From a virus (Duplodnaviria > Heunggongvirae > Uroviricota > Caudoviricetes): a DNA stretch of 27,481 bases. The notes under the pieces were generated by a model that saw nothing but the letters and a program-made list of their open reading frames with translations, did no database searches and was not told where the DNA came from. Below, piece after piece: positions 1 through 21,939 of this stretch. The stretch covers positions 1 to 27,481 of IMG/VR virus record IMGVR_UViG_3300028965_000054; one strand, written 5' to 3'. Position 1 is the first letter of the stretch. Every line of letters begins with the position of its first letter. The position numbers and the translations under genes are program-made.

Positions 1-1005
1 TTAATCCCCCGTGGACACTGCGTGGACACTTACGCCTCCTTTCAGCGGATTAAGGGCCACCGCATCCTGCAGGTAATCCGGTGCAAAATGTGCATATGCC
101 ATTGTTTGCTGAATGGTTGCGTGGCCAAGAATCTTCTGAAGCGCAATAATGTTTCCTCCGTTCATCACAAAATGGCTGGCGAACGTATGCCGAAGCACGT
201 GTGCAGCCTGGCCTTTTGGCAAATCGGGCTTAACTCTTTTCAGCGCCAGACAGAATTCCCGGTACTTCACCTCAAACAAGCTCCCTGTTTCTCTGGTTCT
301 GATCGCCTCACAAACCGCCTGCGAAATTGGCACCGTTCTCTTCCGGCCATTTTTGGTTTCAAGAAACGTTACACGGTTATGAACTATCTGTTCACCACGA
401 AGCTTACAAGCTTCACTCCAGCGCGCCCCTGTGCTTAAACACAAAAGCGCAACACGCCAGTAGTCGCCCTCCAGTGTATCGAGCAATAGCGCTACTTCCT
501 TCTGGGACAGGAAAGCCATCTCTCGTGGGGATACATAAAGAATAGAAATCCCCCTTACCGGATGCTCTGCATCCCAGAGGCCTATTTTCTTCAGTACGGT
601 AAACATTCCGGATAACCGATTCATGTATCTGTTAGCAGATGACGGTTTCAATCCATCAGCTATCTTTTGAGAACGCCACGCGATAATTTTCAGCTTATCA
701 AGATCCACAGCCTGCATATCAGCGCCAAGCTCATTGATTATGTTGCGCAGTTGTTTTCGGTCTTCTTCCGCCTTACGCCTGTGCTGGCCGTGATACATCC
801 ACCACAACTCAAGCAAATCATTTAGCGTTCGACGATCACGGTAGCCCTGTATATATTCCCGCTTTTCAGCGTTCGCCATGATGTAGCGTTCAGTGGCCAC
901 CGCTACCGATTTTTTGTCAAATACCTTACGCACGCGCTTTCCCTTGCGTCCGTTCGGCCTGATGTCCAGCAAATAACGACCATCTTCGAGCTTCTTAATC
1001 GACAT
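1..1005 (-). CDS. int: Tyrosine site-specific integrase (P2 Int-like)
   Basis: 334 aa from ATG at 1005..1003 (track ORF starts at an upstream TTG); GGAGGG RBS upstream. C-terminal catalytic region HVLRHTFASHFVMNGGNIIALQKILGHATIQQTMAYAHF is typical of phage integrases (R/H-x-x-R box and Tyr nucleophile). Stop codon is at window bases 1-3. Confidence 0.92.
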   Translation of the reverse strand: MSIKKLEDGRYLLDIRPNGRKGKRVRKVFDKKSVAVATERYIMANAEKREYIQGYRDRRTLNDLLELWWMYHGQHRRKAEEDRKQLRNIINELGADMQAVDLDKLKIIAWRSQKIADGLKPSSANRYMNRLSGMFTVLKKIGLWDAEHPVRGISILYVSPREMAFLSQKEVALLLDTLEGDYWRVALLCLSTGARWSEACKLRGEQIVHNRVTFLETKNGRKRTVPISQAVCEAIRTRETGSLFEVKYREFCLALKRVKPDLPKGQAAHVLRHTFASHFVMNGGNIIALQKILGHATIQQTMAYAHFAPDYLQDAVALNPLKGGVSVHAVSTGD

Positions 1006-2985: not shown

Positions 2986-3095
2986 GTATATTTATCTCAT
3001 GGCTTGTTCTGATTATTTCGGTGGCCTGCGCTATTGGGATTATGCGAATTATTCATTCAGTAAAAAAGATTGAACGCTTTTTCACTGGTGAATAA
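2982..3095 (+). CDS. Small hydrophobic membrane peptide (37 aa), translationally coupled
   Basis: ATG 2982 overlaps upstream stop (ATGA). Hand translation MSIFISWLVLIISVACAIGIMRIIHSVKKIERFFTGE: one TM helix then a basic tail. Below the track length cutoff. Confidence 0.4.
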   Translation: MSIFISWLVLIISVACAIGIMRIIHSVKKIERFFTGE

Positions 3096-3622: not shown

Positions 3623-3826
3623 ATGGCAATTAAGCATTTTCCCGTCGTTCGCTTTACCTCCAGAGGGCGCGAATACGAGGTCGACGAACGCCTGATTACC
3701 ACTATCGACAAACATCGTTCGGAAAAGGATGCACACCACATCTACCTCACTGACGGCACTTACTTCTGCGCCACCAACGTGGCGCGGGTGAATCTTATCC
3801 GACAGGTACAGGAGCCACGCAGATGA
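3623..3826 (+). CDS. Hypothetical small protein
   Basis: 67 aa; first gene of a run of six ORFs with 4-nt ATGA overlaps. C-terminal codons lie within duplicated junction module copy 1. Confidence 0.55.
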   Translation: MAIKHFPVVRFTSRGREYEVDERLITTIDKHRSEKDAHHIYLTDGTYFCATNVARVNLIRQVQEPRR

Positions 3827-9424: not shown

Positions 9425-10384
9425 ATGAAAATTTGTATCGATGACGGCTCCACCAACATCAAGCTGGCATGGACTGAGAACGGCGAACGCCGCAACGCCA
9501 TCAGCCCGAACAGCTTCAAGTCGGAATGGTCTGCGCCGTTCGGTGGCACGCAGCCCGCGAACTACATGCTTGATGGTGTGCGCTATGGTTTTGATCCGGT
9601 CAGCGATCGCTTTGTCCAGACGACCGACACGCAATACCAGTACAGCGATGTGAATGTCATTGCCATTCATCACGCGCTGGTCAAATCAGGCATCACGCCA
9701 CAGGAGGTGGATGTGGTTGTCACCCTGCCACTGAGCGAGTATTTCGACACAAACGCACAGCCGGACATGGCCAACATCAACCGCAAAAAAGCGAACGTTA
9801 TGCGCCCGGTGGAGTACCAGAACGGCGAGACATTCACTATCCGTAACGTGCGGGTTATGCCTGAATCCATTCCGGCTGGCTTTAAAGCACTGGCTGACAT
9901 GAGTCCGTTTGAATCCCTGCTGATTGTGGATTTGGGCGGAACCACGCTGGATGTGGCAAAGGTTCAGGGGCAACTGGCAGGTATCAGCCAGGTGTTTTGC
10001 GATCCACACGTAGGCGTTTCTCTGATGGCCGATGCCGTGCTGTCGGTGATGGCCACCAACGGTATGCGCACCAGTCACCACATCGCCAATACCATTATCG
10101 AACATCGCCACGATGAAGCCTGGCTGCGCCAGCACATCCACAATGACACGCATTACGCCAGCCTGATGGCAGTTATTCGTGAAAAGGAGGAAACACTGAA
10201 ACAACGCGTGATCCGCGCGCTGGCGGGTTTTTCGGGTTACGGGCGGGTGATGGTTGTAGGTGGAGGAGCGGAGATTGTGGCACCCGCTATCCGCGAAGCC
10301 TGCGGAGTTAATGCGACTTTCATCGCGGACGGGGTGCCACAATTTGCTCTGGTTAATGGGCTGTACGCAATGGACAAGGAGTAA
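9425..10384 (+). CDS. parM: ParM/StbA-like actin-type partition ATPase
   Basis: 319 aa; N-terminus MKICIDDGSTNIKLAW...ISPNSFK...YSDVNVIAIHHAL closely parallels recalled plasmid R1 ParM (MLVFIDDGSTNIKLQW...ISPNSFK...YSDVNVVAVHHAL). AAGGA RBS. Confidence 0.88.
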   Translation: MKICIDDGSTNIKLAWTENGERRNAISPNSFKSEWSAPFGGTQPANYMLDGVRYGFDPVSDRFVQTTDTQYQYSDVNVIAIHHALVKSGITPQEVDVVVTLPLSEYFDTNAQPDMANINRKKANVMRPVEYQNGETFTIRNVRVMPESIPAGFKALADMSPFESLLIVDLGGTTLDVAKVQGQLAGISQVFCDPHVGVSLMADAVLSVMATNGMRTSHHIANTIIEHRHDEAWLRQHIHNDTHYASLMAVIREKEETLKQRVIRALAGFSGYGRVMVVGGGAEIVAPAIREACGVNATFIADGVPQFALVNGLYAMDKE

Positions 10385-10388
10385 ATCA

Positions 10389-10703
10389 ATGACGACACCA
10401 ACCAGACGGATAAGTTTCTATCTGAAGCCCGCCGTCGTCAAGAGCGAACGGGAGGCGTGCAGTTACCTCGACAGCCTGCCAGCCTCCGAACGCAGCCGCG
10501 CACAACGCGCGGCTTTTCTGGCTGGACTGGCTCTTATAAAACGCACCCCCGCGTTGGCGTATTCGCTGGCAGAATGGTCAGAAGACGAAATAAGGATGCC
10601 ACCGCTACCAGTACAGCCTGAAAAACCGGCGCAACCAGCAGCAGACAGCGCCCCCCATATGCAGCAGGTGAAAAAGAATATTCAGGCGTTTTTCCCGAAG
10701 TGA
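10389..10703 (+). CDS. parR: ParR/StbB-like centromere-binding protein
   Basis: 104 aa from ATG 10389 (AAGGAG RBS inside parM 3' end). RRISFYLKPAVV...YLDSLPASERSRAQRAAFLAGLAL parallels recalled R1 ParR (RTIAFKLNPDV...TLDSIPQGERSRLNRAALTAGLAL). Confidence 0.8.
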   Translation: MTTPTRRISFYLKPAVVKSEREACSYLDSLPASERSRAQRAAFLAGLALIKRTPALAYSLAEWSEDEIRMPPLPVQPEKPAQPAADSAPHMQQVKKNIQAFFPK

Positions 10704-10717
10704 AAACAGGAGTAACT

Positions 10718-11005
10718 ATGTCCACCATTACCAAAGAATGGTTACAACGTAAAATCACAGAGTTTAAATCGTGGCGCGAAGACATCCCGTTCGGTCTTGA
10801 TGAAGACGATCACAATATGTTAATCGCACTGGAAATCGCACTTGCATCACTGGAAGCAGAGCCAGTGGCATGGATGCACGCAAATAATCCTATTGGAATA
10901 CCGGCGATAACAAGAAGTAAAGATGTTGCAGACAGCTGGCGCTCTAAGGGATGGAATGTATTGCCTCTTTATTCACTGACCCGCTCCATCAATTTATGCC
11001 ATTAA
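10718..11005 (+). CDS. Hypothetical protein (AT-rich cargo)
   Basis: 95 aa from ATG 10718 with AGGAG RBS; region visibly lower in GC than flanking phage genes. Confidence 0.55.
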   Translation: MSTITKEWLQRKITEFKSWREDIPFGLDEDDHNMLIALEIALASLEAEPVAWMHANNPIGIPAITRSKDVADSWRSKGWNVLPLYSLTRSINLCH

Positions 11006-11016
11006 TGGAAGTAATC

Positions 11017-11376
11017 ATGATGAAAGATAATTCCGGAAGCCAGCGTGCATCAGTTGCAGTTATGGTAATGATTAAATTTGTGAAACAGTACACCGGAAAG
11101 CCAATCTCGCTCCGGCAATTAAGCAAAGAAACCGTTTCACTGTCATATCTGGAGCAAATATTCAGATATTTACGGGAAAGTAGCCTGGTAAAAGCCACAC
11201 GCGGCCCGGGTGGTGGATATATCCCAACAAAAGAAAATTACAGTGTTGGTGATATTGTCCGGGCAATGAAATGTTCCGGATTATATACACAGCACGTTAT
11301 TCTGGCTGCACTGGATAATATTTCTTTAACCAGCCTGCAGGAAGACACAAATTATCAGTTGTCTGCCATTGAATAA
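11017..11376 (+). CDS. Rrf2-family HTH transcriptional regulator, short form without Fe-S cysteine triad
   Basis: 119 aa; Rrf2 signature ISLRQLSKETVSLSYLEQIFRYLRESSLVKATRGPGGGY (compare recalled IscR [29 protein letters not shown]). Only one Cys. AT-rich. Confidence 0.75.
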   Translation: MMKDNSGSQRASVAVMVMIKFVKQYTGKPISLRQLSKETVSLSYLEQIFRYLRESSLVKATRGPGGGYIPTKENYSVGDIVRAMKCSGLYTQHVILAALDNISLTSLQEDTNYQLSAIE

Positions 11377-11382
11377 GAAAAC

Positions 11383-11423
11383 CCGGAACGGGTGCGCAAA
11401 TTCTTTGTGCGCCCGTTCCGGGT
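11383..11423 (-). terminator. Strong hairpin terminating the leftward late operon (P-Q-ogr)
   Basis: Near-perfect 19-bp inverted repeat CCCGGAACGGGTGCGCAAA / TTTGTGCGCCCGTTCCGGG. On the minus strand it is followed by a U-rich tract (TTTTCTTATTC). Confidence 0.6.
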
Positions 11424-11444
11424 TGGACAAGCGAAGCGCGTCAG

Positions 11445-11702
11445 CTATCCGGCCTGCAACAACTCCAGAGCCATTTGTTTTTCTTCCGGACGCATCCGCT
11501 CAATCAACAGCTTTAACACACCATTCTCCAGCCCGCTGGGCACCAGTGTGTGCGAGTAGGTCAGATTCATCACCCAGGTATGTCCGCACTCGAGACGGGT
11601 GCAACGGTAATACACATCAGCAAACAGATCGGTTTTCCAGGCTGTTTTCTCAATCACTGCATGTGCACCGCAGCAATGACATCGCGCTTTCTGTCTGCGC
11701 AT
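11445..11702 (-). CDS. ogr: Ogr/Delta-like zinc-finger late transcription activator
   Basis: 85 aa from ATG 11702..11700 with GGGAGGTGG RBS (track ORF begins further upstream). Cys spacing C-x2-C-x22-C-x4-C matches the Ogr/Delta zinc finger. Confidence 0.75.
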   Translation of the reverse strand: MRRQKARCHCCGAHAVIEKTAWKTDLFADVYYRCTRLECGHTWVMNLTYSHTLVPSGLENGVLKLLIERMRPEEKQMALELLQAG

Positions 11703-11767
11703 TTTCCACCTCCCGGAACAGCGTTTTACTGCCACCGATTTTACCCGCTCTTTCCCCATACCGCACA

Positions 11768-12802
11768 TCACTCCATGGGTTCATCAAAATCAAGAATAAA
11801 TTTCACCTCCCCCAGTCGTCTGATATCCGGGTCGCTGTTGATCCCCTCCATAATCAGGCGGCGCATCGGGATAACCTCATCCCTGTAATATGCCTCGCGG
11901 GATTTCAGTGGGTCACCAAGCCCGGCCGTATTTGCGGGAATGATGCCGGCAAGTCCGGGTGGAAAACGGTGCGCAACGAGCTGATCCTGGGCACTGATGG
12001 TTTTTATATTCAGGAACTCATCTTTTGTGCCTGAATCCCCGATAGGGATAACCTTAACCCCTTCCTTGTCTCCGCCAGCTATGTTGATAAACATGGACTT
12101 AAAATTGCCAGCACCTTTCGAGTTTTCAATCTCTTTACGAAATTCCGCCTCAAGCTCAGGCGTCATATTGGGATCAGTGGAATACAGGATATAACCCAGA
12201 TGCGCGCCGTTTTTGTAATATTTGCGGCGAAAGCGTGTGGCATCCACATTCAGCATCGCCGACTCCATCCCGTGGATATAATCCGGGACACCGTAAACCT
12301 GCTGTTGCGGGTCATAAATGGCCAAGAACACCACTTCGCCTGGCGGGTAAACGAGATCTTCCAGTGCCGCCTGCACAATCACCGTGCCCCCCTCGTTGTT
12401 ACGCCGCAGGTACAGCGACGGCAGTGTATGCAGGCGCACCACCCGACCGAAGCCATTGCGCACTTTAAGCAGCCCCATATCCCCGAATATCAGCAGATTG
12501 GTCACCGCTGCCGCCATGGCGGCGTGTGTCATACCACCACCACCCCGAAAACCCTGCATGATCATATTCACGCGCGCACGCAATACCGCGCCGTGATACG
12601 GCGCGATATTGGACAACATGGCGAGATCCATGCGCTCAATGGGCGGCGTGTACCAGCCGTTATAGCCATCCCAGAGCGAGCCGTAATAACAGCCCCATGC
12701 AGCGACCGGTTCCGGGTCACCAAATTCAATAAACGTCATTTTGCCGACTCCCTCTTTCATGACAACCTTATCTCTGACCGGGTGTTTTTTCTTTTTACTC
12801 AT
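11768..12802 (-). CDS. Q: Portal protein (P2 gpQ-like)
   Basis: 344 aa from MSKKKK. Shared blocks with recalled P2 Q: FRRKYYKNGAHLGYI vs FRRKYYENGAHAGYI, NFKSMF vs NFKNLF, IPIGDSGTKDEFLNIK vs IPLSEVATKDDFFNIK. Start overlaps terminase stop. Confidence 0.9.
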   Translation of the reverse strand: MSKKKKHPVRDKVVMKEGVGKMTFIEFGDPEPVAAWGCYYGSLWDGYNGWYTPPIERMDLAMLSNIAPYHGAVLRARVNMIMQGFRGGGGMTHAAMAAAVTNLLIFGDMGLLKVRNGFGRVVRLHTLPSLYLRRNNEGGTVIVQAALEDLVYPPGEVVFLAIYDPQQQVYGVPDYIHGMESAMLNVDATRFRRKYYKNGAHLGYILYSTDPNMTPELEAEFRKEIENSKGAGNFKSMFINIAGGDKEGVKVIPIGDSGTKDEFLNIKTISAQDQLVAHRFPPGLAGIIPANTAGLGDPLKSREAYYRDEVIPMRRLIMEGINSDPDIRRLGEVKFILDFDEPME

Positions 12803-14583
12803 GCAGGAAAGATCCATGTTGATTTGCGCTTGTGCTTATAGTTCAGGGGTTCGTTACTTGCTGCATGGGCGATGGCAAAGAAGATGTCAGCGTGCCCGGT
12901 TTCTTCGCTACGTTCAGCGGTAAAAGTAACTTTATTGCCACTGTTGGTGGATTCCTGACGGATGGCCAGAAATGATGCCGGAATATCTGTGGCTTCCTCA
13001 TCCCACTCAATACGGTTGGCGTAAATCAGATCCAGCATCTTCATCACCAGGCGGTTTTTGGATTCAACACTGTAATGAATGGCCACTGTTTCACGGCGGG
13101 CAAATCCCTGAACCAGCTCAAAGACACCATAGCCAAGCCCGGTAACATCAATGCCGATAAACGTCATGTTATAGCGCGCCTTAATGCTGCGGATACGCTC
13201 TGCCATAAACTGGAATGACATACTCCGCCAGTGGTGTTTTTCCAGCACGCGGAATCGTTCTGCCGCAACCAGCGGTGGTGCCAGCACCACAAACGTGGCG
13301 TTATCGCCGGAGCGCGCAGGGTCAAAGCCGCCCCACACTTCACGGTTTCCAAATGGCATGGCATCTTCCGGGTGAAAATCCTCCCACGTACTGATATCAA
13401 CGCCACAGCGCACGAGGTCATCGAATTTAAAGACGCTCTCTTTGTCATCCACAAACACGCACATAAACAGCATATTGAAGGCTGTTTCGTTGTACCGCTC
13501 GCGCAGTTCGTTGATGTCAGCAAGGTTAAAGCCGCCGGCAATGGCATCTTCCATTGTCACCACATAGCGCCACTGGCCATCCGGGCATTCGCGCCCGCCA
13601 TCGCGCAGCTCATCAAAGGACGGAAACTCAACCCCTTTTCGTTTCGGATCGCCTTTGCGCCATTCATCGCCAGACCAGAACGGATAGCCCTGATGGGTTT
13701 TGGTTGACGGCGTGGAGAAGTAGGTAATGCGCCAGTGCGAGTGGGTGGCCATACCGGACGCCACTTCATTGAGGCGACGAAAGCCGGGGATCCACAGATA
13801 TTCGTCAATGTACAGGTGGCCGCTGTTTGACTGCGCCGTGTTACTGTTGGTCGCCAGAAAATACAGTTCAGCCAGATTACTTAACTTAACCGGGTTGCCT
13901 TTAATGGGAATGCCAAATTCCGTCTGTGCAATCTTAACGATATAGGTGCGGAACACTTCGGCCTGACGTTTTGATGCCGATAAAAATATCTGTGTGTCGC
14001 CGGTTAATACCGCATCTTCGAACGCCTCAAACGCGAAGTAATACGTCGCCCCAATCTGGCGCGATTTAAGCAGGTTGCGTACACGACGGAATTTGTTTTC
14101 ACGCAGATGCAACTGATAAGCGAACAGTTTTTTGGTAAACGGCTCAAAACTCTCTGCTGTCAGCCCTGACACATCATTAGCTTTACGACGACGCTCTTTC
14201 TTATCCGCGTCTTTTTCTCCGCGCTCTTCTTTTCCATAACGGCCAGACCGGGGAATATCAGCCCCCATTCGTTCTATCTCGGCCATTCGTTCTGTGTGCT
14301 TGTTCCTGACCGACATCAGTTTGACGTGGTGGCCAATCAGGCGATCGAGTTCATCGTGCTCTTCCTGGGTTTTATGGTCACGCTCCGCCAGTACAGCGAG
14401 ACGCCGGGCGATGACATCCTCCACGCCCTCAGTATTAAGCTGTGTGTACCACTCAAACTTTGTCGCCCAGTAATAAACAATTCGCGGGCTGTTCAGTCCG
14501 AGCTTCTTTTGTATTTCTTTTGGGGTGTGCCTTTTCAGATAGAGTGATTTTGCTGCAGCAATCACTTCATCAGAGTACGCCAT
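12799..14583 (-). CDS. P: Terminase large (ATPase) subunit (P2 gpP-like)
   Basis: 594 aa; size and position (leftward, upstream of Q, divergent from O) match P2 P. Confidence 0.85.
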   Translation of the reverse strand: MAYSDEVIAAAKSLYLKRHTPKEIQKKLGLNSPRIVYYWATKFEWYTQLNTEGVEDVIARRLAVLAERDHKTQEEHDELDRLIGHHVKLMSVRNKHTERMAEIERMGADIPRSGRYGKEERGEKDADKKERRRKANDVSGLTAESFEPFTKKLFAYQLHLRENKFRRVRNLLKSRQIGATYYFAFEAFEDAVLTGDTQIFLSASKRQAEVFRTYIVKIAQTEFGIPIKGNPVKLSNLAELYFLATNSNTAQSNSGHLYIDEYLWIPGFRRLNEVASGMATHSHWRITYFSTPSTKTHQGYPFWSGDEWRKGDPKRKGVEFPSFDELRDGGRECPDGQWRYVVTMEDAIAGGFNLADINELRERYNETAFNMLFMCVFVDDKESVFKFDDLVRCGVDISTWEDFHPEDAMPFGNREVWGGFDPARSGDNATFVVLAPPLVAAERFRVLEKHHWRSMSFQFMAERIRSIKARYNMTFIGIDVTGLGYGVFELVQGFARRETVAIHYSVESKNRLVMKMLDLIYANRIEWDEEATDIPASFLAIRQESTNSGNKVTFTAERSEETGHADIFFAIAHAASNEPLNYKHKRKSTWIFPA

Positions 14584-14667
14584 AAATAATCAATCTCTGC
14601 TGATGCCATTTTAATTTATGCATTTTCAGTAAAGGCCTTTTTAAAAACGAATATCGCGTTTCGGTAT

Positions 14668-14695
14668 TTTTCGGATATATGCGTATATCCGAAAA
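14668..14695. promoter_or_regulatory. 12-N4-12 palindrome in the divergent P/O late promoter region
   Basis: TTTTCGGATATA-TGCG-TATATCCGAAAA centred in the 194-bp gap between divergently transcribed terminase and scaffold genes. Related half-site CGAATAT / TTTCGGTAT just upstream. Confidence 0.5.
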
Positions 14696-14777
14696 CACCG
14701 GAAATTAATCAGGTGACGGTTTTTTTATTTCCCACTTAAATAACGCTCAGTTAATTTTTATCAGCGGGTTAATTCAG

Positions 14778-15668
14778 ATGTCGAAACTGAAAACAGACTG
14801 GGTGGTCGTAGCCACTTCAGGCCCCACCATCGACGGTCGGGAAATTGATCCAAAGTGGCTGACGGATGCCGCCGAGGTTTATAACCCGGACGAACACACT
14901 GCCATGCTCTGGCCGTTTCATGCCAGCGCCGGCTGGCGTGCTTTCACCAATAACTATGGTCTTGTTGATGCACTGAAGGCAGAAAAAGCCGGTGATAAAG
15001 TGCAACTGAAAGCCCGCCTGATACCCAACCGCTTTCTGACCGAAGCCAACGAGGCCGGGCAAAAACTTTTCACCTCCATAGAGGTAAAGGAAAACTACCT
15101 GGGAACAGGCAAATTCTTTGTATCCGGCATCGCTGTAACTGACACTCCGGCCAGCATCAACACCACCCGCCTGCAATTTTCGCAGGGAGACTCCATTCAC
15201 ATGGGGAATGCAGAAGAACTGAATTTCACGCTGCAGTCTGACGACGAGCAGGCCAAACGCAGTTTCTTTTCCGGCCTTTTCTCCGTGGGACGCAACAAAC
15301 AGGAAAACGATATGAACGAAAAACAGTTCGGTCAGTTGATGGACGCCATCAACAAAACCGGCGAACGCTTGGGCAAACTGGAAGAAAACGTCGCGCAGTT
15401 CAGCGCGAAGGATGCCCCGAAAGATACCGGTGATAACAAGCCGGAAGGCAGCACCGGCGATCAGGGGCAGGACAACGCAGAACAGAACAACAAGGACGAC
15501 AAAACCTTCACGCTGACCACCGAGCAGGGCGAAAAGCTGTTCTCCACGGTGAACGCCATCGCGGAGAAAGTCACCAGTATGGAAACCGCATTTGCTGAAC
15601 TCAGCAAGGACGCCACGAAGCTGCCGGGCAACAATCCGGCCGGTGGCGAAACTTTTAACCTGGTGTAA
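14778..15668 (+). CDS. O: Capsid scaffolding protein (P2 gpO-like)
   Basis: 296 aa; similarity to recalled P2 O (ALKAEKAGD vs ELKAEKIDD, GIAVTDTPAS vs GLAVTDDPAS, METAFAEL vs METAFSAL). Confidence 0.85.
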   Translation: MSKLKTDWVVVATSGPTIDGREIDPKWLTDAAEVYNPDEHTAMLWPFHASAGWRAFTNNYGLVDALKAEKAGDKVQLKARLIPNRFLTEANEAGQKLFTSIEVKENYLGTGKFFVSGIAVTDTPASINTTRLQFSQGDSIHMGNAEELNFTLQSDDEQAKRSFFSGLFSVGRNKQENDMNEKQFGQLMDAINKTGERLGKLEENVAQFSAKDAPKDTGDNKPEGSTGDQGQDNAEQNNKDDKTFTLTTEQGEKLFSTVNAIAEKVTSMETAFAELSKDATKLPGNNPAGGETFNLV

Positions 15669-21135: not shown

Positions 21136-21243
21136 ATGCTGTCCCGCAGGGAACAAAAAGCTGCCGCCATTGCCTGGAAAATTATCCGGGCACTGTGGTA
21201 CTGGCTGCGCAAACCTCAGCAACCTCATAAGGAGCAAAAATGA
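21136..21243 (+). CDS. Small ORF (35 aa) between holin-like gene and endolysin
   Basis: Hand translation MLSRREQKAAAIAWKIIRALWYWLRKPQQPHKEQK; its TGA overlaps the endolysin ATG. Below track cutoff. Confidence 0.3.
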   Translation: MLSRREQKAAAIAWKIIRALWYWLRKPQQPHKEQK

Positions 21244-21581
21244 AACTCTCCGATAAGCAACAACAATTTACCGTCATGATCGGAAAACTCATCCAGTTTG
21301 CCCATCAGCGCGGTTATGGCCTGACGTTCGGTGAGGCGTACCGCACGCCAGAACAGGCAAAACTCAACGCACAAAAGGGATCCGGCATTGCCAACAGCCT
21401 GCACTGCCAGCGGCTGGCCGTGGATTTTAATCTGTTTATTAACGGTGAATATCAGACCCGCACAGAGGCCTACCGCGAGCTGGGCGAGTACTGGGAATCC
21501 CTTGGTGGCGCATGGGGCGGTCGTTTTAAAAACCGCCCGGATGGCAATCATTTCAGCCTTGAGCACGACGGCGTGCGCTGA
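21240..21581 (+). CDS. Endolysin, peptidase M15-type (L-alanyl-D-glutamate / VanY-like)
   Basis: 113 aa; His/Asp-containing blocks (SLHCQRLAVDF, DGNHFSLEHD) fit small zinc-dependent M15 endolysins. Confidence 0.7.
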   Translation: MKLSDKQQQFTVMIGKLIQFAHQRGYGLTFGEAYRTPEQAKLNAQKGSGIANSLHCQRLAVDFNLFINGEYQTRTEAYRELGEYWESLGGAWGGRFKNRPDGNHFSLEHDGVR

Positions 21582-21588
21582 TTTTACG

Positions 21589-21618
21589 CTTAATAAGCCT
21601 TCCTGCAGGCTTATTAAG
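21589..21618 (+). terminator. Hairpin after endolysin
   Basis: CTTAATAAGCC-ttcctgca-GGCTTATTAAG (11-bp stem) followed by pyrimidine-rich CCCTCTTATTCTT. Confidence 0.45.
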
Positions 21619-21645
21619 CCCTCTTATTCTTGACTTTAAAAGGAA

Positions 21646-21939
21646 ATGATGATGAACGATAAAAACACCCAGACTACCGCAGAGAACACCATCACTTTAC
21701 AGGTCGGCGAACATGAACTGACGTTTATCCCGACCGTAAAAGCCTACAACGACCTGCAGAACGACTTCATGCCGGATAACAAAATCGCGCCGCTGAAAAA
21801 CTACCTGCGCCGTATCGTGATTAAAGAGCACCGCGATCTGCTGAACCAGTTGCTGGAAAAACCAGGAATGCCGGCCAGCCTGGCAACAGCCGTGAATAAC
21901 GAGTTTGTGCCGGAAGTGGAAATCACCGTAAAAAAATAA
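21646..21939 (+). CDS. Tail assembly chaperone (P2 gpE / lambda gpG analogue)
   Basis: 97 aa, directly upstream of the tape measure gene; ends ...ITVKK on an A-run. Confidence 0.65.
   Translation: MMMNDKNTQTTAENTITLQVGEHELTFIPTVKAYNDLQNDFMPDNKIAPLKNYLRRIVIKEHRDLLNQLLEKPGMPASLATAVNNEFVPEVEITVKK

What the first reader, a model, noticed from the sequence alone, without database searches (positions are those of the whole stretch)
14584..14777. Near-perfect 12-N4-12 palindrome in the divergent terminase/scaffold late promoter region
TTTTCGGATATA-TGCG-TATATCCGAAAA (14668..14695) sits midway between the divergently transcribed P and O genes. I could not see a P2-style TGT-N12-ACA Ogr site in this gap, so the palindrome may be this phage's late-activator site, or a site for a different dimeric regulator.
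Basis: seen in the sequence. Interest (0 to 1): 0.45.

Follow-up and report, generated by a model that had tools for sequence, protein, structure and literature searches.

The report
Shared late-promoter activator site, HP1/K139-type phages
The palindrome is real. It is the core of a conserved protein-binding site midway between the two back-to-back late promoters of a P2-like prophage, most likely the docking site for the phage's own Ogr-type zinc-finger activator, with a sequence unlike the classic P2 site.

Summary
TTTTCGGATATA-TGCG-TATATCCGAAAA lies at 14668-14695, with perfect 12-nt arms. Its centre is 98.5 nt from the terminase (P) start and 96.5 nt from the scaffold (O) start. It is the only copy in the window, and there is no TGT-N12-ACA in the gap.

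The functional core is TTCGG-N14-CCGAA (here TTCGGATAT-N6-ATATCCGAA), flanked by two outer half-sites 10 bp away (14660-14664 and 14699-14703).

An exact-pattern scan of 2.9 million viral contigs found the palindrome in 38 contigs. In 36 of these it lies between P and O homologues, including K139-type phages with only 32-48% identical scaffold proteins and unrelated flanking DNA. The spacer varies freely.

In a set fetched by terminase homology alone, 63 of 66 distinct P-O gaps carry TTCGG-N13/14-CCGAA with at most one mismatch.

-10-like hexamers pile up exactly 55 (or 45) bp from the centre on both sides. That puts the promoter-proximal half-site near -47, as in P2 and 186, whose records annotate one shared Ogr/B site between the same divergent promoters.

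Nearly every locus checked past the portal gene (all but three) encodes a distinct Ogr subfamily protein.

Binding by that protein is inferred, not shown. I found no description of this motif in the searchable literature. I rate it a new variant of a known kind.

The parts
14668..14695 (.). The palindrome as reported: TTTTCGGATATA-TGCG-TATATCCGAAAA, with perfect 12-nt arms
14670..14693 (.). Conserved core TTCGGATAT-N6-ATATCCGAA. The bases shared by nearly all relatives are TTCGG-N14-CCGAA. The spacer 14679-14684 is free to vary. Centre at 14681.5.
14660..14664 (.). Outer (P-proximal) half-site TTCGG, 10 bp from the inner one. About -45 to -49 of the predicted P promoter.
   Evidence: Unbiased conserved columns -22..-20 in 21 lineages; tables
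14699..14703 (.). Outer (O-proximal) half-site CGGAA (4 of 5 matches to CCGAA), 10 bp from the inner one. About -49 to -45 of the predicted O promoter.
   Evidence: Unbiased conserved columns +20..+22
14713..14718 (+). Predicted weak -35-like element of the O promoter (GTGACG), 17 bp upstream of the -10-like hexamer
   Evidence: Conserved T/G at +33/+34 from the centre across lineages. Prediction only.
14736..14741 (+). Predicted -10-like hexamer of the O promoter (TTAAAT), starting 55 bp from the palindrome centre. Predicted start site about 14748, leader about 30 nt.
   Evidence: A -10-like hexamer lies at +55 or +45 on the O side in all 21 lineages as I read the table; the stricter filter counts 9 at +55 and 7 at +45. 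Not mapped experimentally.
14622..14627 (-). Predicted -10-like hexamer of the P promoter (GAAAAT on the minus strand), starting 55 bp from the centre. Predicted start site about 14615, leader about 32 nt.
   Evidence: Retained at +55 even in E. coli relatives whose left half of the gap has been replaced (L025, L026, L036).
11445..11702 (-). Gene for the 85-aa Ogr/Delta-family zinc-finger protein (CX2CX22CX4C, HP1/K139 subfamily). Proposed binder of the site.
12799..14583 (-). Terminase large subunit (gpP), first gene of the leftward late operon (P, portal Q 11768..12817)
14778..15668 (+). Capsid scaffold (gpO), first gene of the long rightward late operon

Best explanation
The palindrome is the core of a roughly 44-bp operator (14660-14703) made of four TTCGG-type half-sites arranged as two inverted pairs in 10-bp phase. 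It sits exactly between two divergent, activator-dependent late promoters. One drives terminase and portal leftwards. The other drives scaffold, capsid, lysis and tail genes rightwards.

The phage's own Ogr/Delta-family zinc-finger protein (11445..11702) most likely binds it as a symmetric oligomer. The subunit on the promoter-proximal half-site, centred near -47 on each side, would recruit RNA polymerase, so one bound complex switches on both late operons.

Shown here: the sequence; its family-wide conservation as sequence rather than as a hairpin; its context specificity; its fixed phased distance to -10-like hexamers; and the co-occurring Ogr subfamily.

Inferred: the transcription start sites; activation rather than repression; and that the Ogr-like protein is the binder.
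For: 1. Context specificity. An exact-pattern scan of 2.9 million viral contigs gave 38 hits. In 36 of them the palindrome lies between gpP and gpO homologues. These include lineages with gpO only 32-48% identical and unrelated flanking DNA. K139 itself carries it at 15489-15512.

2. Fixed arms, free spacer. Spacers seen include ATGCGT, ATACGC, TGCCCG, AACCCC, TCGCGA and GGGGTT.

3. Set not selected for the motif. 80 loci were fetched by gpP homology alone and gave 66 distinct gaps. Of these, 47 have exact TTCGG-N13/14-CCGAA, 16 have one mismatch and 3 have two. ESSI-2 and HP1, also found by homology, carry variants.

4. Conservation outside the searched bases. Across 21 lineages with under 70% flank identity, the columns not used in the searches that are conserved are the outer half-sites (-22..-20 TTC, +20..+22 GAA), TG at +33/+34, and T at +60.

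5. Promoter geometry. -10-like hexamers pile up only at +55 and +45 from the centre, on both sides. Lineages with the hexamer at +45 on both sides mostly lack the outer half-sites (L062 is mixed). The proximal half-site therefore sits about 32 bp upstream of the -10 in both layouts, near -47.

6. Precedent. The P2 record annotates one 'activator binding site; pO, pP promoters' between start sites 3016 and 3127. The 186 record annotates one B-protein site 'activation of pV and p12 promoters'. Smp131 is reported with one shared site for its two promoters (PMC3931495).

7. The candidate binder. Nearly every locus checked past the portal encodes one 83-93 aa CX2CX22CX4C protein with the signature ECGHTFVMNLxFSHTLSPSA. 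It is 18% identical to P2 Ogr, with all four Cys aligned.

8. Regulators excluded. The same site occurs with different immunity regions (window versus E. coli A2) and without the Rrf2 and ParM genes (K139). That excludes those regulators.

9. One site per genome. K139 and the A2 prophage each have a single site, matching their two-operon late layout.
Against: - No binding or transcription data exist for this site. The start sites are predicted only from -10-like hexamers, several of which are weak (TTAAAT, TAGCCT).
- The half-site sequence and spacing (TTCGG centres 19 bp apart) differ from the P2 TGT-N12-ACA site (15 bp apart). Specificity would therefore have had to change along with the protein, and I could not test that link directly.
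- One rearranged contig (L041) has the exact palindrome but no Ogr-like gene in the 14 kb held. Three homology-fetched loci (L202, L228, L229) also gave no zinc-finger hit with my regular expression.
- Loci from the pattern scans are conserved at the searched bases by construction. Only the homology-fetched set and the flanking columns are unbiased.
Confidence: 0.7

Rival explanations
1. It is a regulatory protein site for the two late promoters, but the binder is not the Ogr-like protein. It would be some other phage-encoded or conserved host factor, acting as activator, co-activator or repressor.
For: The identity of the binder is untested. The motif is unlike the known Ogr site. L041 carries the palindrome without a detectable Ogr-like gene in 14 kb. 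Four phased half-sites could suit many oligomeric regulators.
Against: - The Ogr-like gene is the only regulator shared by the window, K139, ESSI-2, HP1 and the divergent contigs.
- CI/Cox-type regulators differ between the window and E. coli A2, which have the same site.
- Rrf2 and MarR genes are absent from K139.
- Hosts span Escherichia, Cronobacter, Vibrio and Haemophilus. From my own knowledge of the consensus sites, the motif matches none of CRP, FNR, IHF, Fis, LexA or DnaA.
- A position near -57 or -67 with 10-bp phasing is typical of activators. Repressor sites usually overlap the core promoter.
Confidence: 0.2
2. The palindrome acts through its secondary structure, as an RNA stem-loop in a 5' leader, a terminator or insulator, or a DNA cruciform, rather than as a sequence-specific protein site.
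For: The window's copy folds into a stable hairpin (-20.7 kcal/mol, z -4.8), and so does K139's (z -4.4).
Against: - The arms are conserved as sequence, with no compensatory changes.
- In many lineages the inner arm positions are not complementary (TTCGGGAAA / ATATCCGAA, TTCGGAAAA / ATATCCGAA). Their folds are no better than shuffled sequence (ESSI-2 z -1.3, L057 z -1.15).
- No terminator-like site is called there.
- The only Rfam hit is far below threshold (22.6 bits against a gathering score of 97).
- The genes are divergent, and the predicted start sites lie outside the palindrome, so it would not be transcribed from either promoter.
Confidence: 0.04
3. It is a DNA-handling site rather than a transcription site, for example a terminase recognition (cos/pac-associated) or replication element that happens to lie next to the terminase gene.
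For: It is adjacent to the terminase gene in every lineage. Repeated phased half-sites resemble some terminase small-subunit or initiator binding arrays.
Against: - The HP1 record is linear, with the P-O gap about 13.7 kb from the end. This fits my recollection that HP1's cohesive ends are the record ends, far from the gap.
- The P2 and 186 records place only late-promoter features in the homologous gap.
- The fixed distance to -10-like hexamers on both sides is not expected for a packaging or origin site.
Confidence: 0.03

Closest known systems
Ogr (P2) / B (186) / Delta (P4) activator sites of P2-type late promoters (TGT-N12-ACA centred near -55)
   Same: - A single dyad-symmetric site midway between the divergent terminase and scaffold promoters (P2 3057-3087 between start sites 3016 and 3127; 186 B site 3798-3817).
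- The promoter-proximal half-site lies near -47.
- The -35 elements are weak.
- The phage encodes a CX2CX22CX4C zinc-finger protein.
   Different: - The half-site is TTCGG, not TGT.
- The inner half-sites are 19 bp apart centre to centre, not 15.
- Most lineages, including the window, add an outer half-site on each side in 10-bp phase. This moves the centre to about -66.5.
- There is only one site per genome, because there are only two late operons. P2 has four late promoters (PMC3931495).
- The accompanying protein is a separate subfamily, 18% identical to P2 Ogr.
Class I CRP-type activation (upstream sites at -61.5, -71.5 and so on, contacting the RNA polymerase alpha C-terminal domain)
   Same: An upstream dyad site whose allowed positions differ by one helical turn. 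Here the centre-to-(-10) distance is 55 or 45 bp. Ogr-family activators are known genetically to need the alpha subunit (rpoA109; from my own knowledge).
   Different: The protein fold is unrelated (a small zinc finger, not a CRP/FNR helix-turn-helix). The site has four half-sites, and one site serves two promoters in opposite directions.
K139 record annotation of the same gap (putative sigma-70 promoters P16 and P17)
   Same: The region is homologous. K139 carries the exact core TTCGGATAT-AACCCC-ATATCCGAA at 15489-15512.
   Different: The record places the putative P16 -10 and -35 hexamers inside the palindrome arms and annotates no protein-binding site. The symmetric GGCGTATG(G/A)T elements at +55/+56 on both sides fit a central activator site better.

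Membership tests
Ogr/B/Delta-dependent late promoter region of P2-like phages | Activator site with the partial dyad TGT-N12-ACA | tested here: not met
   No TGT-N12-ACA lies in 14584-14777. The 7 window matches equal the chance expectation and all lie elsewhere. The site here is TTCGG-N14-CCGAA.
Ogr/B/Delta-dependent late promoter region of P2-like phages | One dyad site between the divergent terminase and scaffold promoters, centred about -55 from each start site (proximal half-site about -47) | tested here: inconclusive
   The position midway is met: the centre is 98.5 and 96.5 nt from the two start codons. -10-like hexamers lie at +55 or +45 in 21 lineages, which gives a proximal half-site near -47. 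The start sites are predicted, not mapped.
Ogr/B/Delta-dependent late promoter region of P2-like phages | The phage encodes an Ogr/Delta zinc-finger activator | tested here: met
   PF04606, E 1.2e-12. CX2CX22CX4C aligns with P2 Ogr. The gene is present in nearly all related loci that reach past the portal.
Ogr/B/Delta-dependent late promoter region of P2-like phages | The site is present upstream of every late operon | tested here: met
   Only two late operons exist, both fed from this gap: K139 annotation and the window ORF layout. There is one site per genome in K139 and in the A2 prophage.
Ogr/B/Delta-dependent late promoter region of P2-like phages | Transcription depends on the activator and on the RNA polymerase alpha C-terminal domain | not testable with these tools
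   Needs reporter assays, in vitro transcription and rpoA mutants.
Ogr_Delta zinc-finger protein family (PF04606) | Four cysteines spaced CX2CX22CX4C in a protein of about 70-90 aa | tested here: met
   C8, C11, C34 and C39 of the 85-aa product are invariant in the alignment with P2 Ogr and seven relatives.
Intrinsic (rho-independent) terminator | GC-rich stem followed by a T run, downstream of a gene | tested here: not met
   The scan calls no terminator at the palindrome. The arms are AT-rich, the flanking genes diverge, and hairpin potential is lost in ESSI-2 and L057.
Known RNA families (Rfam 15) | Match at or above the gathering score | tested here: not met
   The only hit is Ricks_sRNA10 at 22.6 bits against a gathering score of 97.

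The most novel reading that the evidence does not exclude
The HP1/K139/ESSI-2 branch of P2-like phages has replaced the classic Ogr recognition code with a different one: TTCGG half-sites, N13/14 inner spacing and extra phased outer half-sites. A single oligomeric zinc-finger complex bound there would fire both late operons at once. In many lineages the terminase message would start at its own AUG, that is, a leaderless mRNA. This would be a natural example of an activator and its operator co-evolving to a new specificity while keeping the same promoter geometry.
Probability: 0.5. Interest if true: 0.55.

Novelty: new variant of a known kind. Interest (0 to 1): 0.45.

Why it matters
It supplies the missing late-promoter operator for a large and widespread group of P2-like prophages. 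That group includes HP1 of Haemophilus, K139/Kappa of Vibrio cholerae, ESSI-2 of Cronobacter, and many E. coli and E. albertii prophages. In these phages the textbook TGT-N12-ACA site is absent, and published annotations place guessed sigma-70 hexamers on top of the palindrome.

Practical and scientific uses:
- The motif TTCGG-N13/14-CCGAA between terminase and scaffold genes is a simple, highly specific marker of the late switch.
- It gives direct targets for footprinting and reporter tests.
- It offers a tractable pair of related zinc-finger activators with different DNA codes but the same promoter geometry.

Tried and rejected
- Other copies in the window. The 12-mer with up to 2 mismatches and TTCGG-N14-CCGAA with up to 2 mismatches give nothing beyond chance apart from the site itself.
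- TGT-N12-ACA occurs only at chance level, and never in a late intergenic gap.
- The sigma-70 consensus scan of 14300-15000 found no promoter. This is expected for activator-dependent promoters, so I used comparative positions of -10-like hexamers instead.
- The genome-contig scan with gpO returned a single locus (E. albertii NBRC 107761, 99% identical) and gave no diversity.
I replaced it with TTCGGATAT-N10-CCGAA, whose hits are mostly chance: 26 of 111 new loci were P-O gaps.
- The metagenome scan gave 26 hits. Eight are P-O gaps. By my rough estimate the other 18 are about what chance gives. I saw no sign of a second context such as a satellite.
- Literature. Searches on K139, HP1, Ogr and late promoters, and on the motif strings themselves, found no description of this palindrome. 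The K139 genome paper is not held.
- PDB. No solved relative of the Ogr-like protein.
- L041. The exact palindrome is present, but the contig is rearranged (portal followed by tail-fibre genes) and has no Ogr-like gene in the 14 kb held. It is uninformative and is kept as a caveat.
- Rrf2, MarR, ParR-like and CI/Cox proteins were rejected as binders, because relatives with the same site lack them or have different versions.

Full report
**1. The observation**

One search shows TTTTCGGATATA (14668-14679), TGCG, and TATATCCGAAAA (14684-14695). The arms are perfectly complementary. The repeat finder extends the symmetry to 21-nt arms at 81% complementarity (14659-14704).

The flanking ORFs are the terminase large subunit 12799..14583 (-) and the GPO scaffold protein 14778..15668 (+). 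The ORF at 11445..11702 (-) is an Ogr/Delta zinc finger. The centre (14681.5) is 98.5 nt from the P start codon and 96.5 nt from the O start codon.

Perfect 12-nt-arm palindromes occur at only two places in the window. None appeared in 300 Markov simulations of the window. 18 of 20,000 simulations of the AT-rich gap had one. No TGT-N12-ACA lies in the gap, and the 7 window matches equal the chance expectation.

**2. What kind of phage this is**

The window is a P2-like prophage of the HP1/K139/ESSI-2 type. Its order is integrase, repressor, early genes, replication endonuclease, then ogr-like, portal and terminase leftwards, and scaffold, capsid, small terminase, head completion, tail, lysis and tail-fibre genes all rightwards.

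K139 has the same layout. Its record lists only two late transcription units, the orf16 operon and the orf17-to-orf39 operon, which ends at a terminator.

Close relatives occur in 41 of 5,426 complete E. coli genomes and in E. albertii.

**3. Conservation**

- *Close relatives.* In ten E. coli relatives the arms TTTCGGATAT / ATATCCGAAA are invariant, while the centre varies (ATGCGT, ATGCGC, ATACGC, ATGCAC). This holds even in relatives whose left third of the gap has been replaced by unrelated DNA.
- *Exact-pattern scan.* A scan of 2.9 million viral contigs for TTCGGATAT-N6-ATATCCGAA gave 38 contigs. In 36 the palindrome lies between gpP and gpO homologues, including lineages with gpO only 32-48% identical and flanks that cannot be aligned. 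The other two are one AT-rich element that looks like a terminator.
- *K139.* It carries the exact core at 15489-15512, its only copy.
- *Relaxed scan.* This added 26 further divergent gaps and showed that the invariant bases are TTCGG-N14-CCGAA. The O-proximal half (ATATCCGAA) is better conserved than the P-proximal half.
- *Homology-fetched set.* The pattern scans fix the searched bases by construction, so I fetched 80 loci by terminase homology alone. These gave 66 distinct gaps: 47 with exact TTCGG-N13/14-CCGAA, 16 with one mismatch and 3 with two.
- *ESSI-2 and HP1.* Both were reached by homology and carry variants. ESSI-2 has TTCGGGAAA-N6-ATATCCGAA. HP1 has an array of TTTGGATAT, TTCGGATAT, TTATCC, ATATCC and ATATCCAAA in 10-bp phase.
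- *Metagenomes.* There were 26 hits. Eight are P-O gaps, and by my rough estimate the remaining 18 are about what chance gives.

**4. Anatomy beyond the palindrome**

I compared 21 lineages with under 70% flank identity. The columns that were not part of any search pattern yet are conserved are:
- TTC at -22..-20 and GAA at +20..+22, which are outer half-sites 10 bp from the inner ones;
- TG at +33/+34;
- T at +60.

In the window the outer half-sites are TTCGG at 14660-14664 and CGGAA at 14699-14703.

-10-like hexamers pile up at exactly two distances from the centre, +55 and +45, on both sides.
- *O side, by my reading of the table.* 16 lineages have one at +55 (TTAAAT, AATAAT, AATACT, TATGGT, TATGCT, TAGCCT) and 5 have one at +45. 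The stricter filter counts 9 and 7.
- *P side, filter.* 14 lineages at +55 and 4 at +45.
- *Control.* The only other position to reach 4 counts was +27 on the P side, in four closely related window-type lineages.

Lineages with the hexamer at +45 on both sides mostly lack the outer half-sites. L062 is mixed: O at +45, P at +55. In both layouts the promoter-proximal half-site therefore ends about 32 bp upstream of the -10, which puts it near -47.

In K139 the two sides are near mirror images, GGCGTATGGT and GGCGTATGAT at +55/+56.

For the window this predicts:
- an O promoter with -35-like GTGACG at 14713-14718, -10-like TTAAAT at 14736-14741, and a start near 14748;
- a P promoter with -10-like GAAAAT at 14627 down to 14622 on the minus strand, and a start near 14615.

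**5. Mechanism**

The P2 record annotates one 'activator binding site; pO, pP promoters' (3057-3087) between start sites 3016 and 3127, that is, -55/-56 of each. The 186 record annotates one B-protein site 'activation of pV and p12 promoters' between the two promoters. Smp131 is described with one shared TGT-N12-ACA site for its two promoters (PMC3931495).

The window's element is the positional and geometric counterpart of these sites, with a different sequence.

Nearly every related locus that reaches past the portal encodes a single 83-93 aa protein with CX2CX22CX4C and the signature ECGHTFVMNLxFSHTLSPSA. It is only 18% identical to P2 Ogr, but all four cysteines align. HP1 has an unannotated copy that appears frameshifted.

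Other regulators are excluded by distribution. The window and E. coli A2 share the site but have different immunity regions. K139 lacks the Rrf2, MarR and ParM/ParR genes.

The most likely mechanism is that an oligomer of the Ogr-like protein occupies the four half-sites and recruits RNA polymerase to both flanking promoters. The binder, the start sites and the direction of regulation are inferences.

**6. Rivals**

- *Structure-based function* is unlikely. The half-sites persist where the arms no longer pair, and those versions fold no better than shuffled sequence. No terminator is called at the palindrome and no Rfam family reaches threshold. The predicted starts lie outside the palindrome.
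- *A different binder* cannot be excluded (confidence 0.2). L041 has the palindrome but no Ogr-like gene in the 14 kb held, although that contig is rearranged.
- *A packaging or replication role* does not explain the symmetric promoter geometry.

**7. Novelty**

Searches of the held literature found no description of this motif or of late-promoter operators in HP1/K139-type phages. The K139 genome paper itself is not held. The K139 GenBank record annotates only guessed promoter hexamers that overlap the palindrome.

I rate it a new variant of a known kind. The logic is the same as the Ogr/B shared site. The new features are the recognition sequence, the four-half-site layout, and the one-turn-further position in most lineages.

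**8. Verdict**

The element is real, non-random, conserved across the phage family, and almost certainly the late-switch operator. Interest is moderate (0.45): the finding is useful and testable, but it extends an established paradigm.

Noticed in passing
window 21588-21619: A second perfect palindrome, GCTTAATAAGCCT-N6-AGGCTTATTAAGC. It lies between the endolysin gene (21240..21581) and the tail-chaperone ORF (21646..21939) and is followed by CCTCTTATTCTT. It may be an internal terminator or attenuator of the long late operon.
   Followed up: no
window 11380-11424: A 21-nt inverted repeat (90% complementary) between the convergent Rrf2-like gene (10951..11376 +) and the ogr-like gene (11445..11702 -). 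It is probably a bidirectional terminator. Upstream of ogr, on the minus strand at about 11725-11735, there is a TAAAAT -10-like hexamer that could give ogr its own promoter.
   Followed up: no
window 9425-11376: The prophage carries a ParM actin-like segregation gene, a Plasmid_stab_B (ParR-like) gene and an Rrf2-family regulator between the replication gene and ogr. The module is also in E. coli A2 but not in K139. It hints at plasmid-like maintenance or a cargo module.
   Followed up: partly
L163 (HP1, NC_001697) about 409-680, minus strand (record about 10408-10679): HP1 has an unannotated Ogr-like ORF between terminator T31 and the portal gene. It is split over two reading frames in the deposited sequence: MARTTDIYCTVCNSNQLS... 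continues as ...YYCACKNPLCGHRFVMNMEFSHT... This is either a frameshift or an old sequencing error.
   Followed up: partly
L051 (K139) 15433-15455; L010 (ESSI-2) 3772-3795; many IMG/VR loci: In most HP1/K139/ESSI-2-type lineages the P-side -10-like hexamer (CATAAT or TATGAT) ends 6-7 nt before the terminase start codon. This predicts a leaderless terminase mRNA. The window lineage instead has a leader of about 32 nt.
   Followed up: partly
L051 (K139) 15488-15519: The K139 record's putative P16 promoter hexamers (-10 at 15488-15493, -35 at 15514-15519) lie at the edges of the palindrome 15489-15512: the -10 overlaps the left arm and the -35 abuts the right. No binding site is annotated there. 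The promoter call is probably a misprediction.
   Followed up: yes
L007-L009, L025, L026 (E. coli relatives), left part of the P-O gap: Some relatives have the P-proximal third of the gap replaced by a segment about 36 bp longer that contains TTCCGTAA-type direct repeats (ttccggttcgttccgtaacgttccgtaatatccc). A -10-like AATAAT is still kept at +55 from the palindrome centre.
   Followed up: partly
L041 (IMGVR_UViG_2660238287_000001): This contig has the exact palindrome between the P and O homologues, but the portal gene is followed directly by tail-fibre and HP1-ORF34-like genes. No Ogr-like gene is present in the 14 kb held. It is a rearranged or defective element.
   Followed up: partly
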